Below are positions 6,390 through 61,995 of a stretch of DNA of 64,000 nucleotides, one piece after another. The stretch is from an uncultured bacterium (GTDB lineage: Bacteria; Lernaellota; Lernaellaia; Lernaellales; Lernaellaceae), in assembly GCA_964511015.1 (NCBI GenBank), contig CAZEDX010000005.1:21171-85170 (forward strand), given 5' to 3'. Every line of letters begins with the position of its first letter. Position 1 is the first letter of the stretch. The notes beneath the pieces are model-generated. The model was not told the DNA's origin. It was given only the letters and a program-made list of their open reading frames with translations, and did not search any database. The translations under genes were made by a program, and so were the position numbers.

Positions 6390-6570
6390 CGCATCCTCCT
6401 GCCCGTTCCCACGAGCAATGGACATGCCAACGGCGGACGAAAAAATGAATTCCCTTATGAATCAAGCAGTTGACCGAAAACGGCGTTGCGAAGCAGGCGA
6501 TGATGTGTTCGGAAATCGAACAGTCGTGTTCGGATTCCGAACAGTCAGAACGAACACCAAGTGTTCTTGC

Positions 6571-7743
6571 TCACTCCCGCAACCATTCCGGAGAGAAGAC
6601 AGCGAAGTCGATGCGCAGATAGGGCAGGAACGGTAACAGACCTCTCTCATACAAGCAGCCTAGCTGCCCGTCGGGCAAGACCGCCAGCGCGGAATACGCC
6701 GAACCGCCCGGGTTCAACACACGTGAAACCGGCCAGGTTTTGCCGTTGTCGGCACTGAGATAGACGGTCAAGTTGCGCCGGAGCAGTTCGCTTTCCGACG
6801 CCAGCCCTGAATACAACAGGCCGTAAGACGTGTTCAGCAGGCTGCCCATGCACGAAGGATCAAGCAATTCGTCGTCATGCGCCACGCCGGTCCAGGTTAG
6901 ACCCCGGTCCTCGCTGCGCCCCACCCAGCGCCGATGCACCGCCGACAGATCACGCGCGTTAATGACGAGACTGCCGTCGTCCAGTTCCGCCACCTGCGAT
7001 TCGTCGGAATCCGGCACCAGACTTCCTCCGATCTGCCAGGTCTCCCCGTCGTCGCTATAGATCACATGCGAGTAAGCTTCGCCGTTGGTCGCGTCGCGGT
7101 GATCGCACGGGACGATGAAACGGCCATCGGCCAACTGGATGCTGCGCCCGGGACCCGTAGCGTACCATGTCCATTCTTCTGGCTTCACCTGGGTGGTGAT
7201 GTCTAGCGGCTCGGACCAACTCGCCCCTTCGTCGCTGCTGCGGGTGATAAGTACCCGCCGGTTGGTCGGGTCGTCGGCGGGGTTGGTGCAAAAGGGCAAC
7301 AGGATGTCGCCGGTTGCGCGGTCGACGACTGGCGCCGGATTGCCGGCGGTGTCGAAACCGTTGTCGACAATGACACGCAAGGCCGACCAGGTGCGCCCGC
7401 CGTCCACACTGCGTTTCATGACCAGATCAATGTCGCCGGTATCGGCAATGCTCGGACGCCCTTCGCAAAAGGCGAGCAATGCGCCAGTGGCGGTTTCGAT
7501 AACGGCAGGAATCCGGTAGACGTCGTATCCTCCCTGCCCGCCGACAAAGACCGGGTACTCGGCGAACTCGATGGCGCCGTCATCGGTGGCGTCATCGTCG
7601 ATATCGTTGTTGGCGTCATCGTCGTCGCCGGGCGCGTTGGTGTTGTCGTCGGCTATGTTGTCGTCATCACCGGAATTTTCACATGAGATTGCCGTCAGAA
7701 CAGCCAGGAGCAATACAAGGCCTGGCAGCAGATTGCTTTTCAT
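6571..7743 (-). CDS. Exo-alpha-sialidase (GH33, BNR/Asp-box repeats) lipoprotein with an N-terminal Asp-rich tether.
   Basis: Lipobox LTAISC. D-rich linker SGDDDNIADDNTNAPGDDDDANNDIDDDATDDG. RIP motif YRIPAV. Five Asp-box SxDxGxTW repeats (SVDGGRTW, SDEGASW, SDDGETW, SEDRGLTW, SADNGKTW). Confidence 0.75.
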   Translation of the reverse strand: MKSNLLPGLVLLLAVLTAISCENSGDDDNIADDNTNAPGDDDDANNDIDDDATDDGAIEFAEYPVFVGGQGGYDVYRIPAVIETATGALLAFCEGRPSIADTGDIDLVMKRSVDGGRTWSALRVIVDNGFDTAGNPAPVVDRATGDILLPFCTNPADDPTNRRVLITRSSDEGASWSEPLDITTQVKPEEWTWYATGPGRSIQLADGRFIVPCDHRDATNGEAYSHVIYSDDGETWQIGGSLVPDSDESQVAELDDGSLVINARDLSAVHRRWVGRSEDRGLTWTGVAHDDELLDPSCMGSLLNTSYGLLYSGLASESELLRRNLTVYLSADNGKTWPVSRVLNPGGSAYSALAVLPDGQLGCLYERGLLPFLPYLRIDFAVFSPEWLRE

Positions 7744-7969: not shown

Positions 7970-8890
7970 ATGCGCAAATTGATTGCTTGGCTTAGGGGTT
8001 TGAACTGGAAGCTGACCCTTGGCTATTGCGCCCTGTTTTTCGTGCTGTTCTTCGTTTTCTTGTACCTGACCTTTCCCTACAACTCGGTTCGCGACGCCAT
8101 CGTGCGTCAAGTTGAAAGCCTGCAAGGCGCGGAAGGCACTTCCGCGATGCGCATGCGCGTGGAAGTGGCCGATGTTTCTCCGTTCCGGTTGACCGGCGTG
8201 CGCCTGCAGGGCGTCAAACTCTCCCGGCCCGAGGATCCACGACAGGTATTGCTCAATCTGAACGAAGTGCGAATTCGCCTGCGGCCGACCCAACTTTTAC
8301 GCGGCCGGCTGTGGCTCGATTTCGACGTCTACGCCTACGACGGCGGCGCCGCGGGCTCCTACTGCAAACGCGGCCCAGTGACTGATCTGGCGTTGAACTT
8401 TGTAGGGCTGCGCCTAGCAAAATACGGCACGCGCGAACTGGTGCAGAAGTTCGGCTCGATGTCGTTGGACGGCACGTTATCCGGCCAGTTCGAGCTCCAC
8501 TTCAACCCGGCGATGCGCCGCAACAACAGTGGTGGGCTGACGTTGAACATCGACAAATTGAAGGCCACCGGCATCACCATGGTCGGCAACAAGCTGCCCG
8601 ACATGACTTTCGAACCGGGCAAGATCGTGTTGAAGATGCAGAACCAGAACTTCCAGGTCGACGAATTCAAACTGAAGAGTGACCAACTGGAAGTGGATCT
8701 GACCGGCCGCATCACGCTGGCCGATCAGATGAAGAACAGCCGCCTGTTCCTGAACTTCAGGTTCAAGCCTTCCGACGAACTTGAAACCGCCTTAGGCATG
8801 TTGATGATGACGATGAAAGAGCCGGATGACGAGGGCTTCTATTCGCTATCCATCAACGGCACGCCGGGGAATCTCCGCACCCGTCACTGA
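7970..8890 (+). CDS. Membrane-anchored periplasmic protein, possibly T2SS GspN-like. Start taken at MRKLIAW.
   Basis: N-terminal TM helix WKLTLGYCALFFVLFFVFLYL followed by a beta-rich domain. The family assignment is tentative. Confidence 0.4.
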   Translation: MRKLIAWLRGLNWKLTLGYCALFFVLFFVFLYLTFPYNSVRDAIVRQVESLQGAEGTSAMRMRVEVADVSPFRLTGVRLQGVKLSRPEDPRQVLLNLNEVRIRLRPTQLLRGRLWLDFDVYAYDGGAAGSYCKRGPVTDLALNFVGLRLAKYGTRELVQKFGSMSLDGTLSGQFELHFNPAMRRNNSGGLTLNIDKLKATGITMVGNKLPDMTFEPGKIVLKMQNQNFQVDEFKLKSDQLEVDLTGRITLADQMKNSRLFLNFRFKPSDELETALGMLMMTMKEPDDEGFYSLSINGTPGNLRTRH

Positions 8891-9404: not shown

Positions 9405-10922
9405 TCAGCATCCACACGCGTCGGCATCGTCGGCGGCGGACGCTTGGTTGCTGTCATCATCCACGTCGTCGTCTAGGTCGTCGTCCTGATCGTCGTCGGC
9501 ATCATCGTCGGACAGATCGTCATCGGCGATGTCGTCGTCGGCATGGTCGTCGTCCGCAACGTCGTCATCCGCGCTGTCATCATCGACAATGTCGTGCGGT
9601 TCCAGAAAATCATAGTAGCGCCCCATCCAGTAGGCGATCAGGTAGTCGACTCCGGGCTGCACGTGCTGAGGCAGCCAGCCGTAACATTGCAAATGGTGGG
9701 GTGTGCGTTGCCACAGGTATTCCACGCGACACCGGTCGGTGATTTCCTGCGCTCCCTCGGCCTGGTATGCGAAACCGAGCAAATCGTTGAGACCCAACGA
9801 CTCGGCCAAGTCGGTCAGAAACACCGATACCGGATCGACCGGCAGTTGCGGACAGTTAATGTGAATCTCGCGGTTGGGCGGATCCTGGAAGACGGTGAGC
9901 GAGTGAAGATCGTCTTCCATGATCTCCTTCGCCCCGGCGCACTGACCCATTTTTTCACAGGCGATCAGATAGACGTAGTCGAAATAGACGTTGTGGGTCC
10001 ATTCGACCAGCCGGCGCTGTTTGCTGAACAGATCCCAATAGACCGCCAAACGTTCCGGATCGTCATCCAGCCGGAACAGGTTCAGATCGATCTGGTGCCG
10101 CAGGTTGTTGGCGAAGTACTCGGTATACCGGTTGAAAAAGGCAATGCTCGTCAACGGCAGCGTGGGCGCCAGTTTTTCGAACTGTTCGGCATACAGATCC
10201 CAATACTCTGCCGTGTCCAGAATGTGCGCCGCGATCAGGCAGAAAACGAGGCGTTTCTGGCCGTCGATCATCGGCGCCGCCGTGGTCGGCAAGCCTTCCT
10301 CGTTGAGAATCAGCCAGGCGCTGTTGCGCAGCTTGTCGATGACCTCTTTCACCATCTCGCGAATCAGGGCCCGGGTCGGGGCGTCGTCGATGAAATCGTA
10401 GGCCAGCGCGAGGCCGTGCCACCAACCCACATATTGGTCGGACGAACTGTTGGACAGATAGAAAGTGCCCAGCCACGGGCCGGTGCCGTATTCGAGCAGG
10501 TCGCTGCCGGCGTACTCCAACCAGTAGGCCGGATCGTTGACCGGGCCGACGTAACGCCCGATGTACCCGGTGGTTTGCGTCACTCGCAGGTGATCGCGCA
10601 AGGTCTCCACCGCGGCGATTGCGTTCTGCTTGGCGTCTTCGTCGCCCGTCACCGCGTAGCGGAATGATTCGGCCGCGCAGTAGGTGGCCGTCCACATCGT
10701 GGAATCGCCCTGGCCGCGGTAGTACAGCACCTTCTCCAGGTCCTCCGTTTCGAACATGATCTGGACAATGCCGCCATAGCCCGGCACGTGGTGGTCGCGG
10801 AGCCAGGTTTCGTAGTCGATGGCACGTTGAAGCAGGGCCGGGTCTTCGTCTGCCGAAACGGGCGCCGCAAACGCGATCGCCACCGCGCCCAAAAGGAATA
10901 GGACGAGCGTTCTTTTTCTCAT
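9405..10922 (-). CDS. Secreted alpha-helical protein of unknown function carrying a C-terminal poly-Asp repeat tail that ends ...DDADACGC-COOH.
   Basis: Signal peptide MRKRTLVLFLLGAVAIAFAAPVSA. C-terminal ~60 aa read DDDSADDDVADDDHADDDIADDDLSDDDADDDQDDDLDDDVDDD...ACGC, then stop. Confidence 0.6.
   Translation of the reverse strand: MRKRTLVLFLLGAVAIAFAAPVSADEDPALLQRAIDYETWLRDHHVPGYGGIVQIMFETEDLEKVLYYRGQGDSTMWTATYCAAESFRYAVTGDEDAKQNAIAAVETLRDHLRVTQTTGYIGRYVGPVNDPAYWLEYAGSDLLEYGTGPWLGTFYLSNSSSDQYVGWWHGLALAYDFIDDAPTRALIREMVKEVIDKLRNSAWLILNEEGLPTTAAPMIDGQKRLVFCLIAAHILDTAEYWDLYAEQFEKLAPTLPLTSIAFFNRYTEYFANNLRHQIDLNLFRLDDDPERLAVYWDLFSKQRRLVEWTHNVYFDYVYLIACEKMGQCAGAKEIMEDDLHSLTVFQDPPNREIHINCPQLPVDPVSVFLTDLAESLGLNDLLGFAYQAEGAQEITDRCRVEYLWQRTPHHLQCYGWLPQHVQPGVDYLIAYWMGRYYDFLEPHDIVDDDSADDDVADDDHADDDIADDDLSDDDADDDQDDDLDDDVDDDSNQASAADDADACGC
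9408..9580 (-). repeat. Tandem 12-nt repeats, (GAC)3-NNN type, encoding DDDx.
   Basis: Protein tail DDDxADDDx... read directly. Coding for the C-terminus of the 9405..10922 gene. Confidence 0.7.
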
Positions 10923-20949: not shown

Positions 20950-21240
20950 ATGACCCGTACCGAAATCATATGTGCACTTGTCGCCATGTTGCTGGTACTG
21001 GTCATTGCGGCAGCGACACCCTTTTCCCCCAGGGCAGATGACCGGGCGGACGATGACACCGTCGACGACGATACGATTGACGACGACGCACTCGACGATG
21101 ACACCCTTGACGATGATACCCTCGATGACGACACCCTCGATGACGACACGGCTGACGACGACACCGCGGACGACGACACGTTGAGCGAACGGCCATATAC
21201 CCACACTCTGCAGTTGAGCGACGGCGGCTGCGGCTGCTGA
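20950..21240 (+). CDS. 96-aa secreted or membrane-tethered mini-protein that is essentially signal/TM segment + (DDDTx)n repeats + C-terminal GGCGC.
   Basis: MTRTEIICALVAMLLVLVIAAATPFSPRADDRADDDTVDDDTIDDDALDDDTLDDDTLDDDTLDDDTADDDTADDDTL...SDGGCGC*. GGAAGTGAGGA RBS 5 nt upstream. Confidence 0.65.
   Translation: MTRTEIICALVAMLLVLVIAAATPFSPRADDRADDDTVDDDTIDDDALDDDTLDDDTLDDDTLDDDTADDDTADDDTLSERPYTHTLQLSDGGCGC
21034..21190 (+). repeat. 15-nt tandem repeats encoding DDDT(L/A/I).
   Basis: gacgatgacacccttgacgatgataccctcgatgacgacaccctc... read directly. Confidence 0.8.
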
Positions 21241-21248
21241 AGCCCGCC

Positions 21249-22685
21249 CTATTCCGTCAGTTCCTCGCGGCGTTTGCCAAAAATGTATTTGATGAATTTG
21301 ATGAATGAGCCGCCGAAATAGCGCAAGTCGTCCATACTGCGCAGCAGCTTCAGTTTGCGCCACACGAAACCGGGGCGCAGGTAGATGCGCCGGTACATTC
21401 CCCGCTGCAAGCGAATCAGATCGGCGGGCGAAAAGTGATGGGTGTGCCATACCGGCTCACCGCGCACGATGTCGTATTCGTCCCAGTCCTCGCTTTCGAC
21501 CAACCCTTCCTCGGTCATGACCCGGTGCAAGTCGGTGCCCGGATACGGCACCGCCACGTAGACCATGACAAAATCGGGTTTGATCCGCAGCATCAACCGG
21601 AACGTTTGCTCCACTTCGGCCGGTGTTTCCGACGGGTGTGAGCCGATCATAACAAAAGCGCTGGTCAAAATTCCCGCCCGGTGCGCCGCCGCGAATGCCG
21701 CCTCGATTTGCTCGAGCGTGATGCGTTTGCGGACGGCTTCCAGCATTCGCGGGCTGCCGCTTTCGACGCCGAAGGCGATTTTGACGCAGCCCGAGTCGGC
21801 CATCAGTTGCAGCAGTTCCTGATCCACATTACTGACGCGGCTGTCGCAGTCCCAGGAGACACCGAGTTCATGCAACCCATGACAGATATCAATCAGCCGC
21901 TCCCGGCCGTAGGTGAAGGTGTCGTCGTCGATGGTGAAGTGGTCGACGCCGTAGCGTTCGACACATTCCCGCACTTCGTCGAGAACATGGCGCGCGGAGC
22001 GAAAGCGAACCTTGCCGCGGTGGGTGACAAACGAGCCGCAGAAGAAACAATGAACCGGGCAACCGCGGCTGGTGAACAACTCGGTGATGTTGCGCAGCTT
22101 GCTGGAAAGCCCGGGGCTCGAACTCCCCTGATAGAGCGAGAAGTCAATCAGGTCGCGCGCCGGGAACGGCAGTTGGTCGAGGTTTGCCAGCATCTCACGC
22201 ACGGGTCCCCGGCGGATGTCGCCGTCCTCGCGATACACCGTGCCCGGCACTCCGCGCAGCACCCTATCCCCTCGCTGGATCGATTGGCATAGATCGGCCA
22301 GCGCTTGTTCTCCTTCGCCGATTACTCCCACGTCAAACGCCGAGAACTCCGCCAACGTCCGTTCGGGAATGGCCGACAGGTGCGGCCCGCCGACGAGCGT
22401 CACGATGTCGCGGCTGAAGTCTTTCACCACCCCCGCGAGCCGCGCCGCGCTGTTGACGATGGGGGTCATGGCCGTGAAGCCGACCGCGTCCGGCGCGAAC
22501 CGCGCTAGTTGGGACCGCAGTTGATCGGGGTGATAGCGCATCACGCCGTAATCCCAGATCTCGACCGTGGTTCCGACACGTTCGCGCACATATGCCGCGA
22601 GTTGGGCCAGATTAATCGGATGCTGGCACACCTCGGACGCGATGGAGAGCATCGGTTCCGGCGGTCGGACAAGGGCGAGTCTCAT
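21249..22685 (-). CDS. B12-binding-domain radical SAM enzyme (class B rSAM).
   Basis: N-terminal cobalamin-binding-like domain. CxxxCxxC: TSRGCPVHCFFCGS. Start chosen at MRLALVRPP, which has a GAGGG RBS. Confidence 0.8.
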   Translation of the reverse strand: MRLALVRPPEPMLSIASEVCQHPINLAQLAAYVRERVGTTVEIWDYGVMRYHPDQLRSQLARFAPDAVGFTAMTPIVNSAARLAGVVKDFSRDIVTLVGGPHLSAIPERTLAEFSAFDVGVIGEGEQALADLCQSIQRGDRVLRGVPGTVYREDGDIRRGPVREMLANLDQLPFPARDLIDFSLYQGSSSPGLSSKLRNITELFTSRGCPVHCFFCGSFVTHRGKVRFRSARHVLDEVRECVERYGVDHFTIDDDTFTYGRERLIDICHGLHELGVSWDCDSRVSNVDQELLQLMADSGCVKIAFGVESGSPRMLEAVRKRITLEQIEAAFAAAHRAGILTSAFVMIGSHPSETPAEVEQTFRLMLRIKPDFVMVYVAVPYPGTDLHRVMTEEGLVESEDWDEYDIVRGEPVWHTHHFSPADLIRLQRGMYRRIYLRPGFVWRKLKLLRSMDDLRYFGGSFIKFIKYIFGKRREELTE

Positions 22686-22752
22686 TGGTTCCCTCGCTGT
22701 TTTCGCATAATGAGCGCGGGGGATTATAGTCGCCCGGCGCCGTTTGGCCAAA

Positions 22753-23742: not shown

Positions 23743-26262
23743 TCAGCACCCACAGCCTTCGGCGGAATGCCGGTCGTCGTCTTGATCCGCAGGCGACGAA
23801 TCGTCATCGGCCGCATCGTCATCTGACGAGTCATCGTCGTCGGCATCGTCATCGCTCGGCGGCGGCTCGTCCGCCGGTTCCACGGTCAAGGATAGCTCCC
23901 GGTACGACCAGCCGCTATCCGTCGTGGCCAGCACGATTGCCTCGTAGCGACCGGCGTGCGACGGCGTCCAGCGGATCGTGCCGCCACTGACCGTCGCTTC
24001 GGCCAACCCGTATACCGCCACTTCCGCCCCGTCGGCTACCGCATAGGTCCACTCCTCGGCCGCTTTCAAGCGGGTCGTGGACGGTTCGAGAATCGACGGC
24101 GCGGTGAAGCCCACGGCTTCGGGCGGCTGTTTGCCCAGATGCCGGCGCAGGGAATTCGTTTGCATCAGACTGAGTTGGTACCGGTCGTGGAAAAGAGCAT
24201 CCCACAACAAACGGTCTGCTTCGGCCAACGCGGCCTCGTTGGGAAGCCCACTCATCAACGAACTCAGATAGTCGAGCAATCGCAGCAAGGCCTGTCCTTC
24301 GTCGGTCAGCCGGTCGCAGGGGAACCACAGGTCATCCACCAGAGAGACATCGAGCGTGCTGTGGTGCAGACGATTCTGGGTGGTTGCCATTTCGGCGGCA
24401 ATGTGCATTAGCGCACTCCCCGCGGTGACCAGCGTTTGCCGGGAGCCGTCGGGCAACTCATCCTCCAGTTGCTCAATGGCTTCATTCATCGCACGGTTGT
24501 TGGGGAAGTTCAGGCCGTCAAACCCCAACGCCCCGTTTCCGTAGAAGGTTTCGGCCATATAGACCGCCAGTTGCCGGTCGTGTTCGGATAACGCCGCCTC
24601 TCGCGCAGCGGGACCCAGAGCGTCGTCGGGCTCGTAGTCGGCGGCATTGCGCAGATACAGCGCGTACGTGCCGAGCATAAGGCGATTGGCGGCGCCGAGG
24701 ATCATCGGGTTGGTCACGATGCCAACCACCGCGTCGACCAGATCGGCGCTGCGGTTCTGGTAAGGCGCGAGATATACCTTGCCCATGAAGCCATCGCCGC
24801 CGTCGGTGCCGTTTTCGTTGTCCCAGATGGCCGGCTCGCGCCCCAGGCGCGAAGTCACGTCGATCAGATCGGCCGCCTCAAGGGTCGGACTAAACGTGTC
24901 GGTCCCGGTCCACATCACTTCGATCTGCGGGTCGAGTTCGGCACAGACATCCAGGTATTCGGAGCCGCCCGGCCAATCGTTTTGCCGTTGGCTCGAATAC
25001 ACCGTGGGTACGACCCACAGCGCCACGTCTTCGCCGGCCATGGCGGAAAGTTCGCCCCGCAGCCAGTTGGCCAGGGCCACGTGTTGGGCGGCCAACTCAC
25101 CGTCGATCGGCACTCCGACGTCTCCTTCGATGTCATCGAGCAACAAAGTGAAATGGCGAAAACCTCCTTCGACAAACGGCTGGAGCTTAGCCAACAGGGT
25201 CGCCTTTTCCACAGGGTCGTCCATGTCCATGTCTTTGCCCGGACTGATGCCGAAAGAGAAGGTAACGCCGACCATTGCGCCCAGGTGCAGCAGTTCGACA
25301 AAGCGCGCCACCGCTTGGTCATCGTAGGGCGTGCGCCATTCGTCGCGGTGCAACGGATCGTTCTTGGGGCCGTAGATATACAGCCCCAGTCCCAGGCGAG
25401 CCAAGAACGTCATCATGGCCCGGCGCTCGGCATGCGACCACGGCCGGCCGTAAAAGCCTTCCACCACGCCGCTGTTTTCGAGCAGTGGCGCCTCGCGGCT
25501 GGGCAAATCGACAACCTGTTCCGGGCCCACCGAACCGTCCTCGGCAACCGGCACCAACACGGCTTGCATTCCGGCCGACAGCGGGAGAGGGCCGAGCCAC
25601 GCCTCCCGCGGCATGGCCGTCCCGACCAACGACCAGCGGTCGACGTCAGTATCGCCCGAGTCAACGAAATGAATCTCCACGTGATGGACATACTCGCTGG
25701 CTTGTTTCCAATCCAGGCGCAGACCCGTGGCAACTTGCCGCGCACTCACGTTCGAGATTTCCGGCAAGCCGTCGACGGGCGCGGCATACACATGGAACTC
25801 ACGGAGATTGCCCGGACCGGCATCGCGCACCTCGACCTCGACACAATACGCCTCGGCGGGCTCGCCAAAGGCCAACGGCTGATCAAGATACTTCCACACT
25901 TGCTCGACCAACACCCGGCCACCACAGTATTCGCGGGCGCGAACCGTGACCGCGCCGTTTGGTTTGGTTTCCCATTCGGCGTCGAGTTGCGCCAGATGCG
26001 GCGCTGGTCCGCCAAGCGGCGCAAAATCGAACGACAGCGTCGCAATGCCTTGACGCGGCGTCTTCCAGCCGGTGTCCGGATCGTCATCGCGCACGGTGTA
26101 TGGCGCGTCATCGGTTTCGCGCGGCCACATCAGCAAAAAGGTCGGCTGGGTACCCGAAGCGGTCACGCGTGCAAACGGGACCAGATCGAGCGGTGCGGCC
26201 TGAACGGCCGCCGCGCTCAGCACTAAGACGGCCCACACTAGCAACAAGTGTTTCATTGGCAT
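23743..26262 (-). CDS. Secreted GH84-family beta-N-acetylglucosaminidase (O-GlcNAcase/hyaluronidase-like) with a C-terminal poly-Asp tail ending EGCGC.
   Basis: Signal MKHLLLVWAVLVLSAAAVQA. GH84 catalytic block VVEGFYGRPWSHAERRAMMTFLARLGLGLYIYGPKNDPLHRDEWRTPY...FRHFTLLLDDIEG (DD catalytic pair). Tail ...SDDDADDDDSSDDDAADDDSSPADQDDDRHSAEGCGC*. Confidence 0.8.
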   Translation of the reverse strand: MPMKHLLLVWAVLVLSAAAVQAAPLDLVPFARVTASGTQPTFLLMWPRETDDAPYTVRDDDPDTGWKTPRQGIATLSFDFAPLGGPAPHLAQLDAEWETKPNGAVTVRAREYCGGRVLVEQVWKYLDQPLAFGEPAEAYCVEVEVRDAGPGNLREFHVYAAPVDGLPEISNVSARQVATGLRLDWKQASEYVHHVEIHFVDSGDTDVDRWSLVGTAMPREAWLGPLPLSAGMQAVLVPVAEDGSVGPEQVVDLPSREAPLLENSGVVEGFYGRPWSHAERRAMMTFLARLGLGLYIYGPKNDPLHRDEWRTPYDDQAVARFVELLHLGAMVGVTFSFGISPGKDMDMDDPVEKATLLAKLQPFVEGGFRHFTLLLDDIEGDVGVPIDGELAAQHVALANWLRGELSAMAGEDVALWVVPTVYSSQRQNDWPGGSEYLDVCAELDPQIEVMWTGTDTFSPTLEAADLIDVTSRLGREPAIWDNENGTDGGDGFMGKVYLAPYQNRSADLVDAVVGIVTNPMILGAANRLMLGTYALYLRNAADYEPDDALGPAAREAALSEHDRQLAVYMAETFYGNGALGFDGLNFPNNRAMNEAIEQLEDELPDGSRQTLVTAGSALMHIAAEMATTQNRLHHSTLDVSLVDDLWFPCDRLTDEGQALLRLLDYLSSLMSGLPNEAALAEADRLLWDALFHDRYQLSLMQTNSLRRHLGKQPPEAVGFTAPSILEPSTTRLKAAEEWTYAVADGAEVAVYGLAEATVSGGTIRWTPSHAGRYEAIVLATTDSGWSYRELSLTVEPADEPPPSDDDADDDDSSDDDAADDDSSPADQDDDRHSAEGCGC

Positions 26263-26315
26263 CCCCATAGAGCCAGGGGTTCGCGACGGATCGCTATTCG
26301 TCGGCAACTCTCTTC

Positions 26316-28520
26316 CTAACAGCCACAACCACCGGTGTCATCATCGTCGTCGGCCTGATCGTCATCGGCACCGGTATCGTCGTCGCTATCGTCGTCGTCG
26401 ACCGCGTCATCATCGGCGTCGTCATCGGCGACGGTGTCGTCGTCGACGTAGTCGTCGGGCTCTGGCCCCAAACCGCCGAACTTGAGATACGGTTCGTGTT
26501 TGGCCGCAAGAGCCGCAAAGGCCGGTTTGAACGTCGTGCGGTCCATGTGCGCCAAACCCATTGACTGCAGGTACGGCGCAATGAAATTCGGCAAGCCGTT
26601 CTTGGTGTACCAATTGAACACACAGAACCAGGTGGTGGCGATCAGGTTTCCCTGCGGGTTGACCTGGCCGTTCACGTCGAGCGCGGCAGTTTCGGCAAAC
26701 GCGGGCCAGGTGCCGTTAACCGTGTCCACCTGTCCTTGCGCGTCGCTATCGTCAGATTCCGACCAATAGCCGAACTCCGTGTCGATGATCGGGTGGTTCG
26801 GATACTTCTTCTGGAACTCGGTGATGAATTCGAGCGTTTCGCTGTACATGTCATCGCCGTAGAACACGCCGTAGTACATCGTCCAGCCGGCCACATCGAT
26901 TGGCGGCACCGACGCCGACATCAGTTTCCAGTTTTGCGCGGCCGGCGACTGGGTGATCATGCGTCCATCGGGGTAGTTGTCCCGGTGGTCGGCGGCCAGC
27001 ATGGCGTTGTAGTCGGCGACCTGCATTACCCACACAAACGGGCATTCGTTTTCCGTTCCCCAAAACATAACAGAGGGCCGGTTGAAATTGGATAGCACCA
27101 TTTCGCGAAACATCTGCTGGTGGATTCCGCGTGTGTTCTGGAGCGTCCAGTTCCAACCGAAGTTCCAATACACCGGAATCTCAGTCATCACCGCCATGCC
27201 CAGGCGATCGGTCAACACGTAGGTATACAAGTGGTTCGGGTAATGCCCTGTGCGCAGGAACAACGCCTTGAGATCGCGCCGCATGGTTACGATGTCGTCG
27301 CGGATGCGCTCCCAAGAGGCGGTGCGGCCGGTGTCGGGGTAGTCTTCATGGCGCGCAACGCCCGGAAAGAACGCCACGCGGCCGTTGACCAACAGCTTGC
27401 CGCCGTGCCGGGCGACGGTACGAATTCCGAATTGATTGAAATGCTCGTCGACCGCTTCGTTGTCGACTGCCAAGGTGGTCTTCATCACATAGAGGTGCGG
27501 CTCCTTTGGCGTCCATCGCAACGGACGCCGCACCCGAAGATCAAAGGAGAGTACCCGAAGTTGTCCGGCCGGCACAATAACGGCCGCTTGCGAATCACCT
27601 TCCAAGAAAGCTTCGTCGCCGATGATCGACGACGGATGTGGATCGGTCAGATAGCCCGCCGCCGCCGGGTCCGCCCGGTAGGCCGTTAAATCGACCGAAA
27701 CCTCTTCATCTGTAGCCAGGTCGTTGGCAACTACCACTTCGAGGTGCAGCGACCCGTTGTAGTCGACTGGCACTATGTTGGTTCGAACCACATGCACCGC
27801 CGGCATGCTTTCCAGGTAGAGATCCTGGATGACCCCGGTGTAGTCCCACCAATCCATCGCGATCCAAGAAGGAACGGCGTCTTGGCGCACGCCCGGGAAA
27901 GGCTTGTCGATACGAATGACCAGTAAGTTCTCGGCACCGTAGTTCAGGAACGGAGACAGATCGAAAGCAAACGGCGTGTAACCACCTTCGTGAACGCCGA
28001 CCCATTCGCCGTTGACCCAAAGGTCGAGAACATAGTTGGCGGCCAGGCAAACGAAATAGTTGGTACGGTCGGCCCAATCACTCGGGACCTCGACCACCCG
28101 ACGGTACCAAACGCCGTCATGATACGGCTCCGGCATATCCGACTCGTCACCGGGCATCGTGTTTTCTACACCCGGCAAGCGGTGCTGTGTCCAGCCGGAA
28201 TCGTCATAGCTCACAGTGTGACGCCCACCGCCGGCCGCCTCGATCGCGCCAATCGTCGTCGCATCGCGCAGTTCGAAGGTGAGATTGTGATCGAGGTGTT
28301 GGCGTTCCCGTTTCCATTGCCCAGCCAGGGAAACCACGTCATGATCCTGCGCTTCAAAATCAGGCACCGGAGCACCCGACTGGATGGGGACCATGACTCC
28401 ATCGACCTCAACGAAATCCAACGTCGTGGCCAGGGTGCCTGGTTGGCTGTCGCCTTGGGCAAGCGCAGCCGTCGTGAAACAGAACAGCAATAGAATTAGT
28501 AGTAGGCCGTCTTTTTTCAT
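26316..28520 (-). CDS. Secreted GH2-family glycosidase (beta-galactosidase/mannosidase/glucuronidase type) with a C-terminal poly-Asp tail ending GGCGC.
   Basis: Signal MKKDGLLLILLLFCFTTAALA (AAAGGAG RBS). GH2 sugar-binding domain WYRRVVEVPSDWADRTNYFVCLAANYVLDLWVNGEWVGVHEGGYTPFAFDLSPFL. Tail DDDTVADDDADDDAVDDDDSDDDTGADDDQADDDDDTGGCGC*. Confidence 0.75.
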   Translation of the reverse strand: MKKDGLLLILLLFCFTTAALAQGDSQPGTLATTLDFVEVDGVMVPIQSGAPVPDFEAQDHDVVSLAGQWKRERQHLDHNLTFELRDATTIGAIEAAGGGRHTVSYDDSGWTQHRLPGVENTMPGDESDMPEPYHDGVWYRRVVEVPSDWADRTNYFVCLAANYVLDLWVNGEWVGVHEGGYTPFAFDLSPFLNYGAENLLVIRIDKPFPGVRQDAVPSWIAMDWWDYTGVIQDLYLESMPAVHVVRTNIVPVDYNGSLHLEVVVANDLATDEEVSVDLTAYRADPAAAGYLTDPHPSSIIGDEAFLEGDSQAAVIVPAGQLRVLSFDLRVRRPLRWTPKEPHLYVMKTTLAVDNEAVDEHFNQFGIRTVARHGGKLLVNGRVAFFPGVARHEDYPDTGRTASWERIRDDIVTMRRDLKALFLRTGHYPNHLYTYVLTDRLGMAVMTEIPVYWNFGWNWTLQNTRGIHQQMFREMVLSNFNRPSVMFWGTENECPFVWVMQVADYNAMLAADHRDNYPDGRMITQSPAAQNWKLMSASVPPIDVAGWTMYYGVFYGDDMYSETLEFITEFQKKYPNHPIIDTEFGYWSESDDSDAQGQVDTVNGTWPAFAETAALDVNGQVNPQGNLIATTWFCVFNWYTKNGLPNFIAPYLQSMGLAHMDRTTFKPAFAALAAKHEPYLKFGGLGPEPDDYVDDDTVADDDADDDAVDDDDSDDDTGADDDQADDDDDTGGCGC

Positions 28521-28641
28521 CGTCGGCTCCTTTCTGTCCTTCATTGAGACATAGCCGGGGAGGTAAGTCAAGCATTATGGCACTCAGTGTCATATTGGAC
28601 GTCTTGTTTCGGGCGTCCGCTTCGGCTATCCACTGACTGCT

Positions 28642-46147: not shown

Positions 46148-47452
46148 CTACCCGCTGCACCCGCCCGAGGCGTTAGAATTGCTGCCAAGAGCCGACGCAC
46201 CGTCCAAGGTGTCGTCGTCTGGGATCGTATCGTCATCAACTGTCGTGTCGTCATCAACAGTCGTGTCGTCATCGATGGTCGTGTCATCATCCACGGTCGT
46301 GTCGTCATCGATGGTCGTGTCATCATCCACGGTCGTGTCGTCGTCTACCGTGGTATCGTCGTCCACAGTTCCGTCATCGTCCGTAATTGTGTCGTCGTCT
46401 ATGATCGTATCATCGTCAACCAGATCATCGTCGTCGAACACGTCATCATCAATCGTATCATCGTCAATGGCGGTATCGTCGTCGATCAGGTCATCGTCTG
46501 GAATCGTGTCGTCATCAATCGTGTCGTCATCTGCGTTGTCATCGTCGGTGGTGTCGTCGTCACCGGGCTCTTCGACCGTGAATCCATCTGCCAATTCGGC
46601 GTATTCGTCGTCGCTGTTGATCACCCGAACAGTGTAGATACCCGGAGTAATGCCGGCGGGCACCGTCGCGGTGAGGATGTCCGAAGCAATTTGCACCACA
46701 TTTGTCGCCAGCGTGTAGCCAATCAGCACGGTCGCGTCTTCGTCGAAATTCGCCCCGGTAATGGTCACGGGAGTGTCCACATCGTTGGGGGCGTGGTTGG
46801 GTTCGATGCCGGTAACCTGCAACTCCGCAGAACTAAGGACGGTGTAACCCTCGACTAGAACGGCACTTCCTCCACCCATATTGGACACCGTCACGTCGTA
46901 GATGCCCGGCTCCAAGCCACTGGGCACCATGGCTTCAATGGTTGTCAGACTGCTGACCGTAACCGACTCCAGTGCTGTCGAGCCGATGGTAACGGTCGCG
47001 CCGTCCAAGAAGTTGGTGCCGGTAAGAACGACGGAAGTCGCCACGTTGTCGAGCCCTTGATTCGGCACGATCGACAGTAACGTCACATCCGAAGGATTGA
47101 TCACGGTATACGCTTCTGGCAGCACCGCCTGACTGAGTGTTTCGGTGATCAGGTACACATCGTAGACCCCCGCCGGGGCACCCGCCGGGATGGTCGCCGT
47201 GATCAGCTTATCGGTCACCACGGTGACCGCGGTACACTCGGTGGCACCGACCAACACGCGCGGGGTGCCGGCGAAATTGGTGCCACTGAGCACGATGTTC
47301 ACTTCGACGTTGTTGGCACCTTGGATGGGTTCGATGCTGGTCAGCGAAACCGTCGCGTTCCCGCCCGATGGATAGCGGGAAAAGTCCCGGCCGCACTGCA
47401 CCAAGATCACCAACAACAACAGGGTCGGCAGAATCGCCAGCGCTCGTTTCAT
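46148..47452 (-). CDS. Secreted IPT/TIG-repeat surface protein with a ~135-aa C-terminal poly-Asp tail ending SGGCSG.
   Basis: Signal MKRALAILPTLLLLVILVQC. Four IPT/TIG-like repeats (...GTNFAGTPRVLVGATECTAV...). Tail (DDDTTV/DDDTIx)n ...DDDTIPDDDTLDGASALGSNSNASGGCSG*. Confidence 0.7.
   Translation of the reverse strand: MKRALAILPTLLLLVILVQCGRDFSRYPSGGNATVSLTSIEPIQGANNVEVNIVLSGTNFAGTPRVLVGATECTAVTVVTDKLITATIPAGAPAGVYDVYLITETLSQAVLPEAYTVINPSDVTLLSIVPNQGLDNVATSVVLTGTNFLDGATVTIGSTALESVTVSSLTTIEAMVPSGLEPGIYDVTVSNMGGGSAVLVEGYTVLSSAELQVTGIEPNHAPNDVDTPVTITGANFDEDATVLIGYTLATNVVQIASDILTATVPAGITPGIYTVRVINSDDEYAELADGFTVEEPGDDDTTDDDNADDDTIDDDTIPDDDLIDDDTAIDDDTIDDDVFDDDDLVDDDTIIDDDTITDDDGTVDDDTTVDDDTTVDDDTTIDDDTTVDDDTTIDDDTTVDDDTTVDDDTIPDDDTLDGASALGSNSNASGGCSG
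46160..46560 (-). repeat. 18-nt and 15-nt tandem repeats encoding DDDTT(V/I).
   Basis: gtcgtgtcgtcatcaacagtcgtgtcgtcatcgatggtcgtgtcatcatccacggtcgtgtcgtc... read directly. At least 20 repeat units. Confidence 0.8.
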
Positions 47453-55700: not shown

Positions 55701-55762
55701 CCCTCCGGAGAGCGGGTATGGCTCTCCTGGTCTCGCGGCCCTCGGTGGTCAAGTTCGACGCG

Positions 55763-56305
55763 TTATACGCCGTCCAGCCCCCCGCGCCCTTTTTCCTGGA
55801 ACCACGAATCAGGGCTCTCTAGATAGTATTTCATGTCGACCAGCAACTGGTGATGGCCTTTTTCTTCGTCAATCATAGCTTGAAGAAATTCCATTTCCAG
55901 TTGATCCGTTGTCCGCTTGAGCCGTTCTTCATAAAATGCCACCGCCTTGGCCTCAAAATCGATGCCGACATCCAGGGCGTCGAGATCCTTGGTTGTCGCG
56001 TGAATACTCGACCCGTGACGCTCGGCCATCTCGCGGAACAATTGGCCCAGGTCGCCGTGGCCCGGTTGATAGGCCTTCCACTCGCCGCCCCACCGGCCGG
56101 CGCTCAGCGCGTCGAAGATACGGTTGATGCGTTCCAGGTGAACCATTTCGTCATCCATCAACATCCGGAATATATCGCGGCCAAGCTGGTTCTCGGTTTT
56201 CTTGAACGCTTCTCCATAGAAGTCATGTCCCTTCTTTTCCATCGCTCGCGCCGTGTTGAGCATGTCCAACGCTTGTTCGTTCATCGCGACCATGTGGTCC
56301 TCCAT
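55763..56305 (-). CDS. Rubrerythrin-family / ferritin-like diiron protein.
   Basis: EKKGHDFY...DEMVHLERI...DFEAKAVAFY...EEKGHHQLL paired E/ExxH helices. Confidence 0.55.
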   Translation of the reverse strand: MEDHMVAMNEQALDMLNTARAMEKKGHDFYGEAFKKTENQLGRDIFRMLMDDEMVHLERINRIFDALSAGRWGGEWKAYQPGHGDLGQLFREMAERHGSSIHATTKDLDALDVGIDFEAKAVAFYEERLKRTTDQLEMEFLQAMIDEEKGHHQLLVDMKYYLESPDSWFQEKGRGGLDGV

Positions 56306-56334
56306 TCCGTCGCCGCTCGACGACGGGCGTTCAG

Positions 56335-56889: not shown

Positions 56890-56923
56890 GTTTCTTCTCC
56901 TTGCAGGCGGACGCCTGCCCTTC

Positions 56924-57826: not shown

Positions 57827-57879
57827 CGTCCCTCCGGGGATGGCAGAAATGTAAGTCGTCGGAACCCGAAGGCAATTCT

Positions 57880-61373: not shown

Positions 61374-61376
61374 TGT

Positions 61377-61934: not shown

Positions 61935-61995
61935 CGAGCCTCCTTTGGGGGCCATTGTACAACGATTCGATGGTTTCGCCAGCCTTCGGCGCGAA

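What the first reader, a model, noticed from the sequence alone, without database searches (positions are those of the whole stretch)
6571..7743. Asp-rich tethers immediately after the lipobox Cys in multiple lipoproteins
Three lipoproteins carry a 25 to 35-residue D-rich low-complexity linker directly after the lipidated Cys: the sialidase (6571..7743, C-ENSGDDDNIADDNTNAPGDDDDANNDIDDDATDDG), the CrtC-like lipoprotein (54384..55700, C-AVDDDDDASEASDDDTIADEDTVADNDSDDDSAAG) and the TlpA-like thioredoxin (61377..61934, CGTAHGRYDGEDTDEGDDDDTGVGGDDD). So the same chemistry, poly-Asp, is used at the N-terminus of lipid-anchored proteins and at the C-terminus of the CGC-tagged exoproteins. This argues for a common functional role, for example cation/mineral binding, an extended spacer to project enzymes beyond a thick surface layer, or recognition by a lipoprotein-sorting machinery. 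Asp at positions +2 onward could also influence Lol-type sorting.
Basis: seen in the sequence. Interest (0 to 1): 0.5.

Follow-up and report, generated by a model that had tools for sequence, protein, structure and literature searches.

The report
Poly-aspartate stalks behind lipoprotein anchors
In this uncultured bacterium (most likely candidate phylum FEN-1099/Lernaellota) and its relatives, most lipid-anchored exported proteins are joined to their anchoring cysteine by a long, floppy, very negatively charged run of aspartates: a lineage-specific version of the ordinary lipoprotein linker, mirrored at the C-terminal end of other secreted proteins.

Summary
Three lipoproteins in the window carry a 27-35 residue Asp-rich stretch after the lipobox Cys (P about 1e-9 to 7e-6 each). 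It is a clade trait, not a quirk of these genes. In loci from the closest relatives, about 23 of 34 predicted lipoproteins have such a tether, against 0 of about 45 in outgroup loci. Those relatives include the fen_1099 and JAAYVF01 MAGs.

Within the clade, presence and strong negative charge are kept. Sequence is not kept, and length only loosely. AlphaFold predicts the tethers to be disordered. Asp codons are mixed GAT/GAC in the genome-wide ratio, so this is not recent slippage.

One protein family uses either lipobox + N-terminal poly-D or a plain signal peptide + C-terminal poly-D ending in ..CGC, and never both. Poly-D is therefore a stalk between a folded domain and a terminal Cys.

Asp at +2 is rare, so E. 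coli-type Lol avoidance is not supported. The consensus C-G-(D/G)-D-D-D-D resembles the motifs of T2SS/GspN-dependent surface lipoproteins. A clear GspN gene lies next to the sialidase gene.

Verdict: a new variant of a known kind (disordered lipoprotein linker, possibly also a sorting motif). Function is inferred, not shown.

The parts
6571..7743 (-). GH33/BNR sialidase lipoprotein gene (390 aa)
   Evidence: ORF. Pfam BNR_2 2.3e-36. AlphaFold beta-propeller from residue 60, mean pLDDT 85.
7684..7743 (-). Signal peptide of the sialidase (residues 1-20). The lipobox Cys21 is encoded at 7681..7683.
   Evidence: K2, hydrophobic core and A-I-S-C fit the PROSITE-style lipobox by my reading. Predicted helix at residues 5-20. 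Orthologues have an aligned, invariant Cys.
7576..7680 (-). Poly-Asp tether of the sialidase (residues 22-56)
   Evidence: 15-16 D, no K or R. pLDDT below 50 and coil for residues 20-53. No tandem repeat by TRF. GAT 5 / GAC 10, interleaved.
55536..55640 (-). Poly-Asp tether of the AttH/CrtC-fold lipoprotein 54384..55700 (residues 21-55). Cys20 is encoded at 55641..55643.
   Evidence: 15 D in 35. pLDDT below 50 for residues 16-48. Orthologue P0134 (73% identical) has a 43-aa D-rich tether.
61803..61883 (-). Tether of the TlpA-like thioredoxin lipoprotein 61377..61934. A conserved GTAHGRYDGE motif comes first, then a variable poly-D insert. Cys17 is encoded at 61884..61886.
   Evidence: Alignment of 9 orthologues: motif conserved, D insert about 7-36 aa.
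7970..8890 (+). GspN (type II secretion system protein N), divergent neighbour of the sialidase gene
   Evidence: NCBIfam TIGR04411, E 7e-48, 163.5 bits against a cut-off of 50, profile positions 1-276 of 280. Weak Pfam T2SSN and AsmA hits.
9408..9593 (-). C-terminal poly-D linker + ..DACGC end of the 505-aa secreted protein 9405..10922. Its relatives carry the poly-D at the N-terminus after a lipobox instead.
   Evidence: The stop is real and no TM/Arg segment lies downstream.
20950..21240 (+). Small ORF made only of a signal/TM segment + (DDDTx)n + ..GGCGC end
   Evidence: Imperfect repeat with a 15-nt period at 21049..21179.
23746..23895 (-). C-terminal poly-D + ..EGCGC end of the GH84-type N-acetylglucosaminidase 23743..26328
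26319..26486 (-). C-terminal poly-D + ..GGCGC end of the GH2 glycosidase 26316..28571
46151..46612 (-). C-terminal (DDDTTx)n linker of about 145 aa + ..GGCSG end of the TIG / choice-of-anchor-Z protein 46148..47452
   Evidence: Repeat with an 18-nt period.

Best explanation
The Asp-rich segments are intrinsically disordered, polyanionic stalks. Each joins an exported, folded domain to a terminal cysteine anchor. In lipoproteins that anchor is the N-terminal Cys, which would be lipid-modified; lipidation is inferred from the lipobox and not shown.

This is the ordinary disordered lipoprotein linker, built in this lineage almost entirely from Asp. The lineage is most likely candidate phylum FEN-1099/Lernaellota.

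Shown here: presence, disorder and strong negative charge are maintained across orthologues, while sequence is free and length is only loosely held.

Inferred: a 30-45 residue chain carrying -15 to -25 charges and no hydrophobic residues stays extended. It is repelled by the anionic membrane and LPS surface, so it holds the enzyme or redox domain several nanometres away from the membrane.

More speculative: the first residues, C-[G/A/S]-[G/D]-D-D-D, probably also act as a sorting cue that steers the protein away from default Lol handling and towards GspN/T2SS-dependent surface display. This belongs to the same class as the G/S- or N/D-rich motifs described in Acinetobacter, Burkholderia and Shewanella.

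The same stalk, placed before a C-terminal ..CGC end, does the mirror-image job in proteins that have ordinary signal peptides.
For: 1. Clade trait. In loci of the closest relatives, about 23 of 34 predicted lipoproteins have at least 9 D in the 35 residues after Cys. Leaving out the genes used to fetch the loci, the figure is about 15 of 26. In Myxococcota, Bacteroidota, Planctomycetota and Verrucomicrobiota loci it is 0 of about 45 (Fisher p = 3e-12 on the earlier count of 22/31 vs 0/45). The relatives include PMZC01 'fen_1099' and JAAYVF01, which is listed as g__JAAYVF01 in f__FEN-1099 in PMC13248872.
2. Orthologues. Eleven sialidase orthologues at 54-66% whole-protein identity have unalignable tethers of 38.9 +/- 3.7 aa and net charge -19 +/- 5. 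All 9 TlpA-like orthologues keep a D insert. The CrtC-like family keeps acidic, K/R-poor tethers throughout.
3. Disorder. pLDDT is below 50 with no secondary structure in both modelled tethers.
4. Not slippage. Asp codons are GAT 36% / GAC 64% in the tethers and tags, against 39/61 genome-wide, and they are interleaved. TRF finds no repeat in the three N-terminal tethers.
5. All-or-nothing pattern. Lipoproteins without poly-D have about 10 hydrophobic residues in the 35 after Cys, so they have essentially no linker, against 2.3 in the tethered set.
6. Terminus swap. In the family of 9405..10922, 10 representatives have a plain signal peptide + C-terminal poly-D/acidic linker + small-Cys end. 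Two (plus L036 and L006) have lipobox + N-terminal poly-D and no tail. None has both.
7. Broad cargo. The tethered proteins include glycosidases (GH33, GH31, GH5), an esterase, beta-propellers, a cupredoxin, a c-type cytochrome, a flavoprotein and a thioredoxin. This fits a general linker.
8. Fit with experiment. In E. coli, linker length and disorder matter for lipoprotein trafficking and sequence does not (10.1101/2021.01.05.425367).
9. Sorting layer. G/S/D/N fill 4.5 of the 6 positions +2..+7 in tethered lipoproteins, against 1.6 in the others. GspN lies next to the sialidase. A GspN-dependent G/S- or N/D-rich motif is reported in PMC12802150.
Against: - Everything is in silico, on MAG sequence. 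Lipidation, localisation and extension are not shown.
- Gene calls and lipoprotein calls come from my own crude caller and regex, so the counts are approximate. The loci were chosen around genes already known to carry tethers.
- In the thioredoxin family the D insert varies about five-fold in length, so length constraint is weak there.
- The closest sialidase outside the species (P0014, 71% identical over the catalytic domain) has an E/T/A-rich tether of the same length, so Asp itself is dispensable.
- Between near-identical strains, substitutions concentrate in the tether. That also fits relaxed constraint.
- The GspN adjacency was not seen in the other fetched loci, and no other T2SS gene is in the window.
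- Periplasmic-type redox cargo (TlpA-like, cupredoxin) does not fit a pure surface-export signal comfortably.
Confidence: 0.65

Rival explanations
1. Primarily an address label. The acidic stretch right after the Cys is the functional element. It would be a Lol-avoidance and surface-export signal read by the T2SS through GspN, or a Bacteroidota-LES-like signal. The rest of the poly-D would be incidental.
For: - The consensus C-G-(D/G)-D-D-D-D resembles three published motifs: B. fragilis LES C-SDDDD (PMC5080379); the N/D- or G/D-rich P2'-P8' motifs of GspN-dependent lipoproteins; and the Pseudomonas 'GDD'/'GGG' Lol-avoidance signals quoted in PMC12802150.
- GspN (TIGR04411, 163 bits) lies divergently next to the sialidase gene.
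- L009 lipoproteins begin with a G/S-rich stretch and then turn D-rich.
- MYXO-CTERM proteins, whose GCGC signature the C-terminal tags resemble, also travel by T2SS (PMC11980579).
Against: - The known signals are 3-8 residues long, while these tethers are 27-45.
- In 9 of 23 tethers the first DDD starts only at +8 to +19. The thioredoxin starts with a conserved non-acidic motif.
- The same poly-D is used at C-termini and between domains, where it cannot be read next to a lipidated Cys.
- The cargo includes a TlpA-like thioredoxin, which by general knowledge normally works in the periplasm.
- The rest of the T2SS was not seen.
Confidence: 0.3
2. A cation- or mineral-binding layer. The poly-Asp tracts are there to bind Ca2+, Mg2+ or Fe, for envelope stabilisation, metal storage or control of mineral nucleation, as in eukaryotic Asp-rich biomineralisation proteins and calsequestrin.
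For: - Charge density is very high, -15 to -27 per tether.
- A domain-less secreted ORF made only of signal peptide + (DDDTx)n + GCGC (20950..21240) suggests poly-D may have value of its own.
- Asp is preferred over Glu.
Against: - No Ca-binding repeat family matched. Pfam and NCBIfam gave nothing for the tracts, and by my reading there is no regular DxDxDG or TSP3 pattern.
- The tracts always sit between a domain and a terminal Cys, which fits a linker rather than a free chelator.
- Orthologues replace Asp runs with E/T/A/S-rich or DT-repeat tethers.
- There is no experimental handle here.
Confidence: 0.1
3. Neutral low-complexity expansion. The Asp runs are tolerated junk produced by a lineage-specific mutational or compositional bias in regions free of constraint.
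For: - Tether sequences cannot be aligned between orthologues. Length varies about five-fold in the thioredoxin family.
- Substitutions between 97-99% identical strains cluster in the tethers.
- The C-terminal tags show imperfect repeats with 15- and 18-nt periods, indicating duplication.
Against: - All 8 D-rich tracts in the window are in signal-peptide proteins and lie next to a terminal Cys. Cytoplasmic linkers such as the one in FlhF are P/A/S-rich.
- Asp codons are mixed in the genome-wide ratio, so there is no pure GAC array.
- TRF finds nothing in the N-terminal tethers.
- The sialidase tether length is narrowly distributed, 32-45 aa, despite complete sequence turnover.
- The N-terminal and C-terminal forms are strictly exclusive within one family.
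- Tethers persist in orthologues down to 49-66% whole-protein identity.
Confidence: 0.12

Closest known systems
Intrinsically disordered N-terminal linkers of Gram-negative outer-membrane lipoproteins (RcsF, Pal, NlpD; El Rayes et al., 10.1101/2021.01.05.425367)
   Same: They sit directly after the lipobox Cys and sorting residues, are longer than 22 residues, and are disordered. Length and disorder matter, sequence does not. The tethers here are 27-45 residues and predicted to be disordered.
   Different: The E. coli linkers are compositionally ordinary, and an artificial GS linker works. Here a whole clade uses nearly pure Asp with -15 to -27 net charge, and uses the same material at C-termini as well. 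Dependence on Lol is unknown.
Sorting motif of T2SS/GspN-dependent surface lipoproteins (Roberts, Gura & Sandkvist 2025, PMC12802150)
   Same: A G/S-rich or N/D-rich run of more than 4 residues from P2', with a hybrid G/D motif in B. pseudomallei and S. oneidensis. It requires GspN. Here the consensus is C-G-(D/G)-D-D-D-D, some tethers start G/S-rich, and a GspN gene lies next to the sialidase.
   Different: The published motif covers about 8 residues in Proteobacteria, while these tracts run for 27-45 residues. No experimental localisation exists. GspN here is the Leptospira-type family TIGR04411. Other gsp genes were not seen in the window.
Bacteroidota lipoprotein export signal (LES; Lauber et al. 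2016, PMC5080379)
   Same: Acidic residues at +3..+6 after the lipidated Cys drive surface exposure. The B. fragilis consensus C-SDDDD and the F. johnsoniae consensus SDDFE look like the start of these tethers.
   Different: The LES is a positional signal of about 5 residues in another phylum, often with K or Q before the acidic residues. The organism here is not Bacteroidota, and the tract is many times longer.
MYXO-CTERM sorting domain (TIGR03901; Haft 2023 preprint 10.1101/2023.06.07.544157; PMC11980579)
   Same: This applies to the C-terminal counterparts. The architecture is signal peptide, domain, disordered region, then a Cys signature described as a 'generic GCGC motif'. The Cys is thought to be lipidated and the protein is taken to the surface by T2SS.
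   Different: MYXO-CTERM continues with a transmembrane helix and an Arg cluster that myxosortase removes. The window's proteins stop right after the Cys motif, with nothing downstream, so they are not members.
Ser-Asp (SD) repeat stalks of staphylococcal LPXTG adhesins such as ClfA and the Sdr proteins (from my own knowledge, not checked here)
   Same: An Asp-containing low-complexity stalk lies between a covalent cell-surface anchor and the functional domain, and its length is needed to project the domain.
   Different: Gram-positive organisms, C-terminal sortase anchoring, a strict SD dipeptide repeat that is glycosylated, and no lipobox.

Membership tests
Bacterial lipoprotein (SPase II / lipobox) precursors | N-terminal basic n-region, hydrophobic h-region, and lipobox [LVI][ASTVI][GAS]-C with the Cys at about position 15-35 | tested here: met
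   The sialidase fits fully (K2, LLLAVLTAIS-C21). The CrtC-like protein (CLGS-C20) and the thioredoxin (CVA-C17) have a Cys at -4 and -3, but their orthologues have canonical LAAC/LTAC/GC boxes with the Cys aligned.
Bacterial lipoprotein (SPase II / lipobox) precursors | Actual diacylglyceryl/acyl modification of the Cys and cleavage by LspA | not testable with these tools
   Needs mass spectrometry or globomycin sensitivity.
Disordered lipoprotein linker (El Rayes et al.) | More than 22 unstructured residues between the Cys and the first secondary-structure element of the globular domain | tested here: met
   Sialidase: coil with pLDDT below 50 for residues 20-53, first strand at residue 60. 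CrtC-like: pLDDT below 50 for residues 16-48, and no regular secondary structure before a short helical turn at about residues 62-64; the first strand is at 78.
Disordered lipoprotein linker (El Rayes et al.) | The linker is required for efficient Lol-dependent outer-membrane targeting | not testable with these tools
   No genetics is possible on a MAG. Lol genes were not examined.
E. coli-type Lol-avoidance signal | Asp at position +2 | tested here: not met
   Position +2 is G 11, A 4, S 2, E 2, D 2, Q 1, Y 1 among 23 tethered lipoproteins. The window proteins have E, A and G.
T2SS/GspN-dependent surface lipoproteins | A G/S-rich or N/D-rich motif of more than 4 residues starting at P2' | tested here: met
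   G/S/D/N occupy a mean 4.5 of 6 positions +2..+7, against 1.6 in lipoproteins without a tether. The thioredoxin is an exception.
T2SS/GspN-dependent surface lipoproteins | The genome encodes GspN together with a T2SS | tested here: inconclusive
   GspN is present at 7970..8890 (TIGR04411, 163.5 bits, cut-off 50). No gspC-M genes were identified among the window proteins I scanned, and the rest of the genome is unavailable.
T2SS/GspN-dependent surface lipoproteins | GspN- and GspD-dependent surface exposure | not testable with these tools
   Experimental only.
Bacteroidota LES | K-(D/E)2 or Q-A-(D/E)2 (or S-D-D-D-D) at +2..+6, in a member of the Bacteroidota | tested here: not met
   The acidic run at +3..+8 is similar, but there is no K/Q rule. 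The lineage is FEN-1099-like, not Bacteroidota. Bacteroidota loci fetched here show C-KK.. starts and no D tract.
MYXO-CTERM (for the C-terminal counterparts) | Cys-containing signature motif (GCGC) | tested here: met
   The ends are ..ACGC..GGCGC..EGCGC..GGCGC and ..GGCSG.
MYXO-CTERM (for the C-terminal counterparts) | A transmembrane helix and an Arg-rich cluster after the signature motif | tested here: not met
   A stop codon (TGA or TAG) follows directly, and no TM/Arg segment lies downstream in any frame. There was no TIGR03901 hit.
Calcium-binding acidic repeats (EF-hand-like DxDxDG, thrombospondin type 3) | A regular spacing of Asp and Gly ligands recognised by the family profiles | tested here: not met
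   No such Pfam or NCBIfam hit on any tether- or tag-bearing protein. The unit is DDDxx without the Gly.

The most novel reading that the evidence does not exclude
FEN-1099/Lernaellota-type bacteria have a two-ended, cysteine-based display system. Poly-Asp acts as the stalk and perhaps also as the recognition element. At the N-terminus it follows the classical lipobox Cys. At the C-terminus it precedes a new sorting or anchoring signal with no transmembrane helix, of the form small residue-Cys-Gly-Cys-stop. This would be a 'mirror lipobox' resembling the mature end of a processed MYXO-CTERM. It would be lipidated or otherwise attached without an intramembrane protease. Both forms would be delivered to the cell surface by a GspN-containing T2SS.
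Probability: 0.2. Interest if true: 0.8.

Novelty: new variant of a known kind. Interest (0 to 1): 0.5.

Why it matters
Lipoprotein linkers were long treated as inert. Recent work shows that their disorder and the residues next to the lipidated Cys decide where lipoproteins go. Here a whole uncultured lineage has pushed this region to a compositional extreme.

The same family uses the stalk at either end of the protein. That is a natural experiment showing that the stalk plus a terminal Cys is a portable display module. It gives three things:
1. A simple sequence signature for predicting anchored exoproteins in FEN-1099 MAGs.
2. A candidate for a new C-terminal anchor type.
3. A test case for whether GspN/T2SS-type lipoprotein sorting motifs extend far outside the Proteobacteria.

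Practically, poly-D stalks could serve as protease-resistant, non-sticky spacers for surface display.

Tried and rejected
- Replication slippage as the origin. TRF finds no repeat in the three N-terminal tethers, and the Asp codons are mixed in the genome-wide ratio. Rejected for the N-terminal tethers. The C-terminal tags do show old, imperfect repeats with 15- and 18-nt periods.
- Read-through or a hidden TM/Arg segment after the GCGC ends. Nothing lies downstream in any frame.
- Known C-terminal sorting domains or Ca-binding repeats. NCBIfam and Pfam scans gave nothing for the tracts. The only related hit was a 'choice-of-anchor Z' repeat in the TIG protein.
- Conserved GspN-sialidase adjacency. 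tblastn of GspN against all loci fetched up to that point (L001-L037) found nothing.
- Promoter scan of the sialidase/gspN divergent region. No sigma-70-like site was found there. The 'terminator-like' hits inside the tether DNA are artefacts of GTC/GAC repeats.
- PDB sequence search with GspN. No informative hit.
- Lernaellota literature. The describing paper (PMC9324843) does not mention lipoproteins or acidic linkers. A full-text search for Asp-rich or poly-aspartate together with lipobox found no description of such tethers.
- Taxonomy from exact-sequence cluster look-up. It gave only 'NCBI, 90,916-bp contig' with no names.
- My first lipobox regex and length-based gene caller missed the CrtC-like gene, because a longer antisense ORF won. 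I replaced it with a caller weighted by GC3-GC2.
Full report

Yes. Three ORFs on the minus strand have a signal peptide ending in Cys, followed by an Asp-rich stretch:
- 6571..7743, a BNR/GH33 sialidase of 390 aa (Pfam BNR_2 2e-36).
- 54384..55700, 438 aa with no Pfam hit.
- 61377..61934, a TlpA/ResA-like redoxin of 185 aa.

The 35 residues after the Cys hold 15, 15 and 11 Asp and almost no Lys or Arg. The window's proteins contain 6.4% Asp, so the binomial probabilities are 1e-9, 1e-9 and 7e-6. Only 1.6% of all 35-residue windows in the window's proteins reach 11 Asp.

Two details need correcting:
- In the thioredoxin the Asp run does not follow the Cys directly. It comes after a family-conserved motif, C-GTA[HK]GRYDGE.
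- The lipoboxes of the second and third proteins are slightly off-pattern, with a Cys at -4 or -3. Their orthologues have canonical boxes with the Cys aligned.

The companion claim also holds. Five proteins in the window end in poly-D followed by ..CGC or ..GGCSG. The stops are genuine and nothing resembling a membrane segment lies downstream.

The 'CrtC-like' label holds at fold level. The AlphaFold model (pLDDT 90) matches AttH, kievitone hydratase, Fsa2/Phm7 and 25-phosphosteroid lyase, all double beta-barrels that handle hydrophobic substrates.

**2. Whose genome is it?**

The exact proteins occur on a 90.9-kb NCBI MAG contig without names.

I scanned one genome per GTDB species with an alignment of sialidase orthologues. 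The best hits were unclassified 'bacterium' MAGs at 70-71% identity, a 1.1-Mb contig at 62%, and PMZC01 'Deltaproteobacteria bacterium fen_1099' at 61%. Myxococcota and more distant phyla followed.

The closest orthologue of the CrtC-like protein (73%) lies on GCA_012517325.1 = JAAYVF01. A 2026 paper lists that name as g__JAAYVF01 in p__FEN-1099; f__FEN-1099 (PMC13248872).

The organism is therefore most likely a member of candidate phylum FEN-1099 (Ca. Lernaellota). This is an inference from best hits, not a phylogeny. The paper that named the phylum describes a saccharolytic, proteolytic lifestyle and says nothing about lipoproteins or acidic linkers (PMC9324843).

**3. It is a clade trait.**

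I used a crude gene caller and lipobox rule of my own, so the counts are approximate. In the window plus ten related loci (L002-L004, L006, L009, L034, L036, L038-L040), about 23 of 34 predicted lipoproteins have at least 9 Asp in the 35 residues after the Cys. Leaving out the genes used to fetch the loci, the figure is about 15 of 26. In the outgroup loci (Myxococcota, Bacteroidota, Planctomycetota, Verrucomicrobiota and others) it is 0 of about 45. Fisher's test gives p = 3e-12 on the earlier count of 22/31 vs 0/45.

The remaining clade lipoproteins have essentially no linker: about 10 hydrophobic residues in the first 35, against 2.3 in the tethered set. In this lineage, then, a lipoprotein that has a long linker has one made of Asp.

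The cargo is broad. It includes GH33, GH31 and GH5 glycosidases, a chlorophyllase-like esterase, Big_5/SBBP and LVIVD beta-propellers, a flavin amine oxidase, a cupredoxin, a small c-type cytochrome and the TlpA-like thioredoxin.

**4. What is conserved?**

Sialidase family:
- Eleven orthologues at 54-66% whole-protein identity have tethers that cannot be aligned. Their length is nevertheless 38.9 +/- 3.7 residues (range 32-45) and their net charge -19 +/- 5.
- The closest homologue outside the species (P0014, 71% over the catalytic domain) keeps the length (43 aa) and acidity (-10) with an E/T/A-rich sequence.
- Myxococcota-type orthologues have short P/A/S linkers of 7-16 residues.

CrtC-like family:
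- Nearly all members are lipoproteins with acidic, K/R-poor tethers of 12-158 residues.
- The DDDxx style appears only in the FEN-1099 relative. Other lineages use DTDTD repeats or mixed D/E/T/S.

Thioredoxin family:
- Only nine hits were found. All keep an Asp insert, but its length ranges from about 7 to about 36 residues.

Between 97-99% identical strains, the few substitutions concentrate in the tether and the signal peptide.

AlphaFold gives pLDDT below 50 and no secondary structure for both modelled tethers, next to confidently folded domains.

At the DNA level the Asp codons are GAT 36% / GAC 64%, interleaved, against 39/61 genome-wide. TRF reports no tandem repeat in any of the three N-terminal tethers. 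The C-terminal tags show imperfect repeats with 15- and 18-nt periods.

Overall, presence, disorder and charge are maintained. Sequence is free, length is held in some families only, and the tracts are not fresh slippage products.

**5. The decisive comparison: one family, two ends.**

The secreted protein 9405..10922 has no Pfam family. In the window and in L003 it has an ordinary signal peptide and a C-terminal poly-D ending in ..CGC. Its homologue in L036 has a lipobox, an N-terminal poly-D and no tail. The 5'-truncated L006 copy likewise has the N-terminal poly-D and no tail.

I ran an exhaustive HMMER search of 1.8 billion representatives with the domain alone. Among near-full-length hits:
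- Ten have a plain signal peptide plus a 44-82 residue acidic or poly-D tail ending in a small residue-Cys motif two to five residues from the end (..DACGC, ..SGCGC, ..DGCGC, ..EACCG, ..ASCCG, ..GVCGG, ..SGCGL, ..RGCGA, ..SCGWTG).
- Two have lipobox + N-terminal poly-D and no tail.
- About seven have a lipobox with a short non-Asp linker.
- About seven have neither.
- None has both.

All eight Asp-rich tracts in the window lie in signal-peptide proteins and next to a terminal Cys. Poly-D is therefore a stalk between a folded exported domain and a terminal cysteine. The N-terminal and C-terminal versions are interchangeable.

**6. Is there also a sorting function?**

Asp at +2, the E. coli Lol-avoidance rule, is not the pattern. 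Position +2 is G/A/S in 17 of 23 and D in 2. Asp dominates from +4 to +8.

The consensus C-G-(D/G)-D-D-D-D, and the G/S-rich starts in L009, resemble three published signals:
- The Bacteroides LES, C-SDDDD (PMC5080379).
- The G/S-rich or N/D-rich motifs at P2'-P8' of lipoproteins that need GspN and the T2SS to reach the surface in Acinetobacter. This is the closer match. A hybrid G/D motif occurs in B. pseudomallei and S. oneidensis.
- 'GDD'/'GGG', cited as Lol-avoidance signals in Pseudomonas (PMC12802150).

The gene divergently adjacent to the sialidase, 7970..8890, is a clear GspN (NCBIfam TIGR04411, E 7e-48, 163.5 bits against a cut-off of 50, full length). So the lineage has the component that in Proteobacteria handles exactly this class of cargo.

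The link is circumstantial:
- The adjacency is not seen in the other loci.
- No other gsp gene is in the window.
- In 9 of 23 tethers the first DDD starts only at +8 to +19.
- The thioredoxin begins with a non-acidic conserved motif.
- The same poly-D is used at C-termini, where it cannot be read next to a lipidated N-terminal Cys.

I therefore treat sorting as a plausible second layer (about 0.3) on top of the stalk function (about 0.65).

**7. Mechanism.**

Shown:
- The architecture, disorder, charge and distribution of the tethers.
- The terminus swap within one family.
- The presence of GspN.

Inferred:
- The Cys is lipidated.
- A 30-45 residue chain with -15 to -25 charges and no hydrophobic residues behaves as an extended polyelectrolyte. 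It is repelled by the anionic membrane and LPS surface and keeps the enzyme or redox domain several nanometres away.
- It is compatible with Sec export. A non-positive early mature region favours export; this is from my own knowledge and was not checked here.
- It offers few protease sites (my own knowledge, not checked here).

Speculative:
- The first residues divert the protein from default Lol handling to GspN/T2SS.
- The tracts also bind divalent cations.

**8. Relation to known systems and novelty.**

The nearest kinds are listed here.
- The disordered lipoprotein linker of E. coli, where length and disorder matter and sequence does not.
- The acidic or G/S sorting motifs after the Cys.
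- For the C-terminal form, MYXO-CTERM. Its signature is a GCGC motif preceded by a disordered region, but it continues with a transmembrane helix and an Arg cluster that myxosortase removes.

The window's tags lack the helix and the Arg cluster, so they are not MYXO-CTERM members.

I found no description of poly-Asp lipoprotein tethers or of ..CGC-stop ends in the searched literature. The N-terminal tether, which is the finding I was given, is a new variant of a known kind. The mirrored C-terminal end is the more novel element and deserves its own follow-up.

**9. Limits.**

- All evidence is computational and comes from MAG fragments.
- Lipoprotein calls are rule-based.
- The loci were sampled around genes already known to carry tethers.
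- The taxonomic assignment rests on best hits.
- Localisation, lipidation and ion binding are untested.

Noticed in passing
window 7970..8890 (+): A full-length GspN (TIGR04411, Leptospira type, 163.5 bits against a cut-off of 50) stands alone, divergent from the sialidase lipoprotein gene. None of the window proteins I scanned matched another T2SS component. Pfam sees it only weakly, as T2SSN/AsmA.
   Followed up: partly
window 9408..9593, 21007..21237, 23746..23895, 26319..26486, 46151..46612: Five signal-peptide proteins end in poly-D plus a small residue-Cys motif (..ACGC, ..GGCGC, ..EGCGC, ..GGCGC, ..GGCSG) followed directly by a stop. They resemble the GCGC signature of MYXO-CTERM but have no transmembrane helix or Arg cluster. 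This is possibly a new C-terminal anchor type.
   Followed up: partly
window 20950..21240 (+): A 96-aa ORF consists only of a signal/TM segment, (DDDTx)n and ..SDGGCGC, with no folded domain. It lies convergent with a B12-binding radical SAM gene (21249..22751). It is unclear whether it is a free poly-Asp peptide, a matrix component or a precursor of something modified.
   Followed up: no
window 9405..10922 (-); L003:11148-12740; L036:505-2145; L006:1-1443: A family of unknown function with a domain of about 420 aa and no Pfam or NCBIfam hit. About 900 homologues at E<=1e-3 across metagenomes show three anchoring styles: C-terminal poly-D-Cys, N-terminal lipobox-poly-D, or a plain lipobox.
   Followed up: partly
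window 54384..62685 (-); L038, L039, L040: A conserved operon-like cluster: metallophosphoesterase, TlpA-like lipoprotein, 667-aa polytopic membrane protein (no family), B12-binding radical SAM, LPG_synthase_C-like (DUF2156), nitroreductase (in the relatives' gene calls; not confirmed in the window), rubrerythrin-like. In the window the AttH/CrtC-fold lipoprotein is inserted after the rubrerythrin-like gene, compared with L040. This may be a lipid or envelope modification pathway.
   Followed up: partly
window 61854..61883 (-), residues 18-27 of the thioredoxin: The motif GTA[HK]GRYDGE directly after the lipobox Cys is conserved in all nine family members, while the following poly-D varies about five-fold in length. 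It might be a docking or sorting element specific to this protein.
   Followed up: no
window 46148..47452 (-): The TIG-domain protein matches NCBIfam 'choice-of-anchor Z' repeats (65.9 bits). It has a stalk of about 145 aa, (DDDTTx)n, encoded by an imperfect repeat with an 18-nt period. Its N-terminus (..LVILVQC-GRDF) looks lipobox-like but has Q at -1, so it is unclear whether it is anchored at one end or both.
   Followed up: no
L036:12417-13856 (-): A Kelch-type beta-propeller protein in a relative ends in (DDDQP)n-GGGGGDNNPCSPFG. This is a variant acidic stalk with a single Cys six residues from the end.
   Followed up: no
window 6505..6546: Two copies of a 21-nt unit (GTGTTCGGAAACCGAACAGTC) containing an internal palindrome. 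They lie between the end of the sialidase gene and the ComM/Mg-chelatase-like gene, and may be a terminator or a protein-binding site.
   Followed up: no
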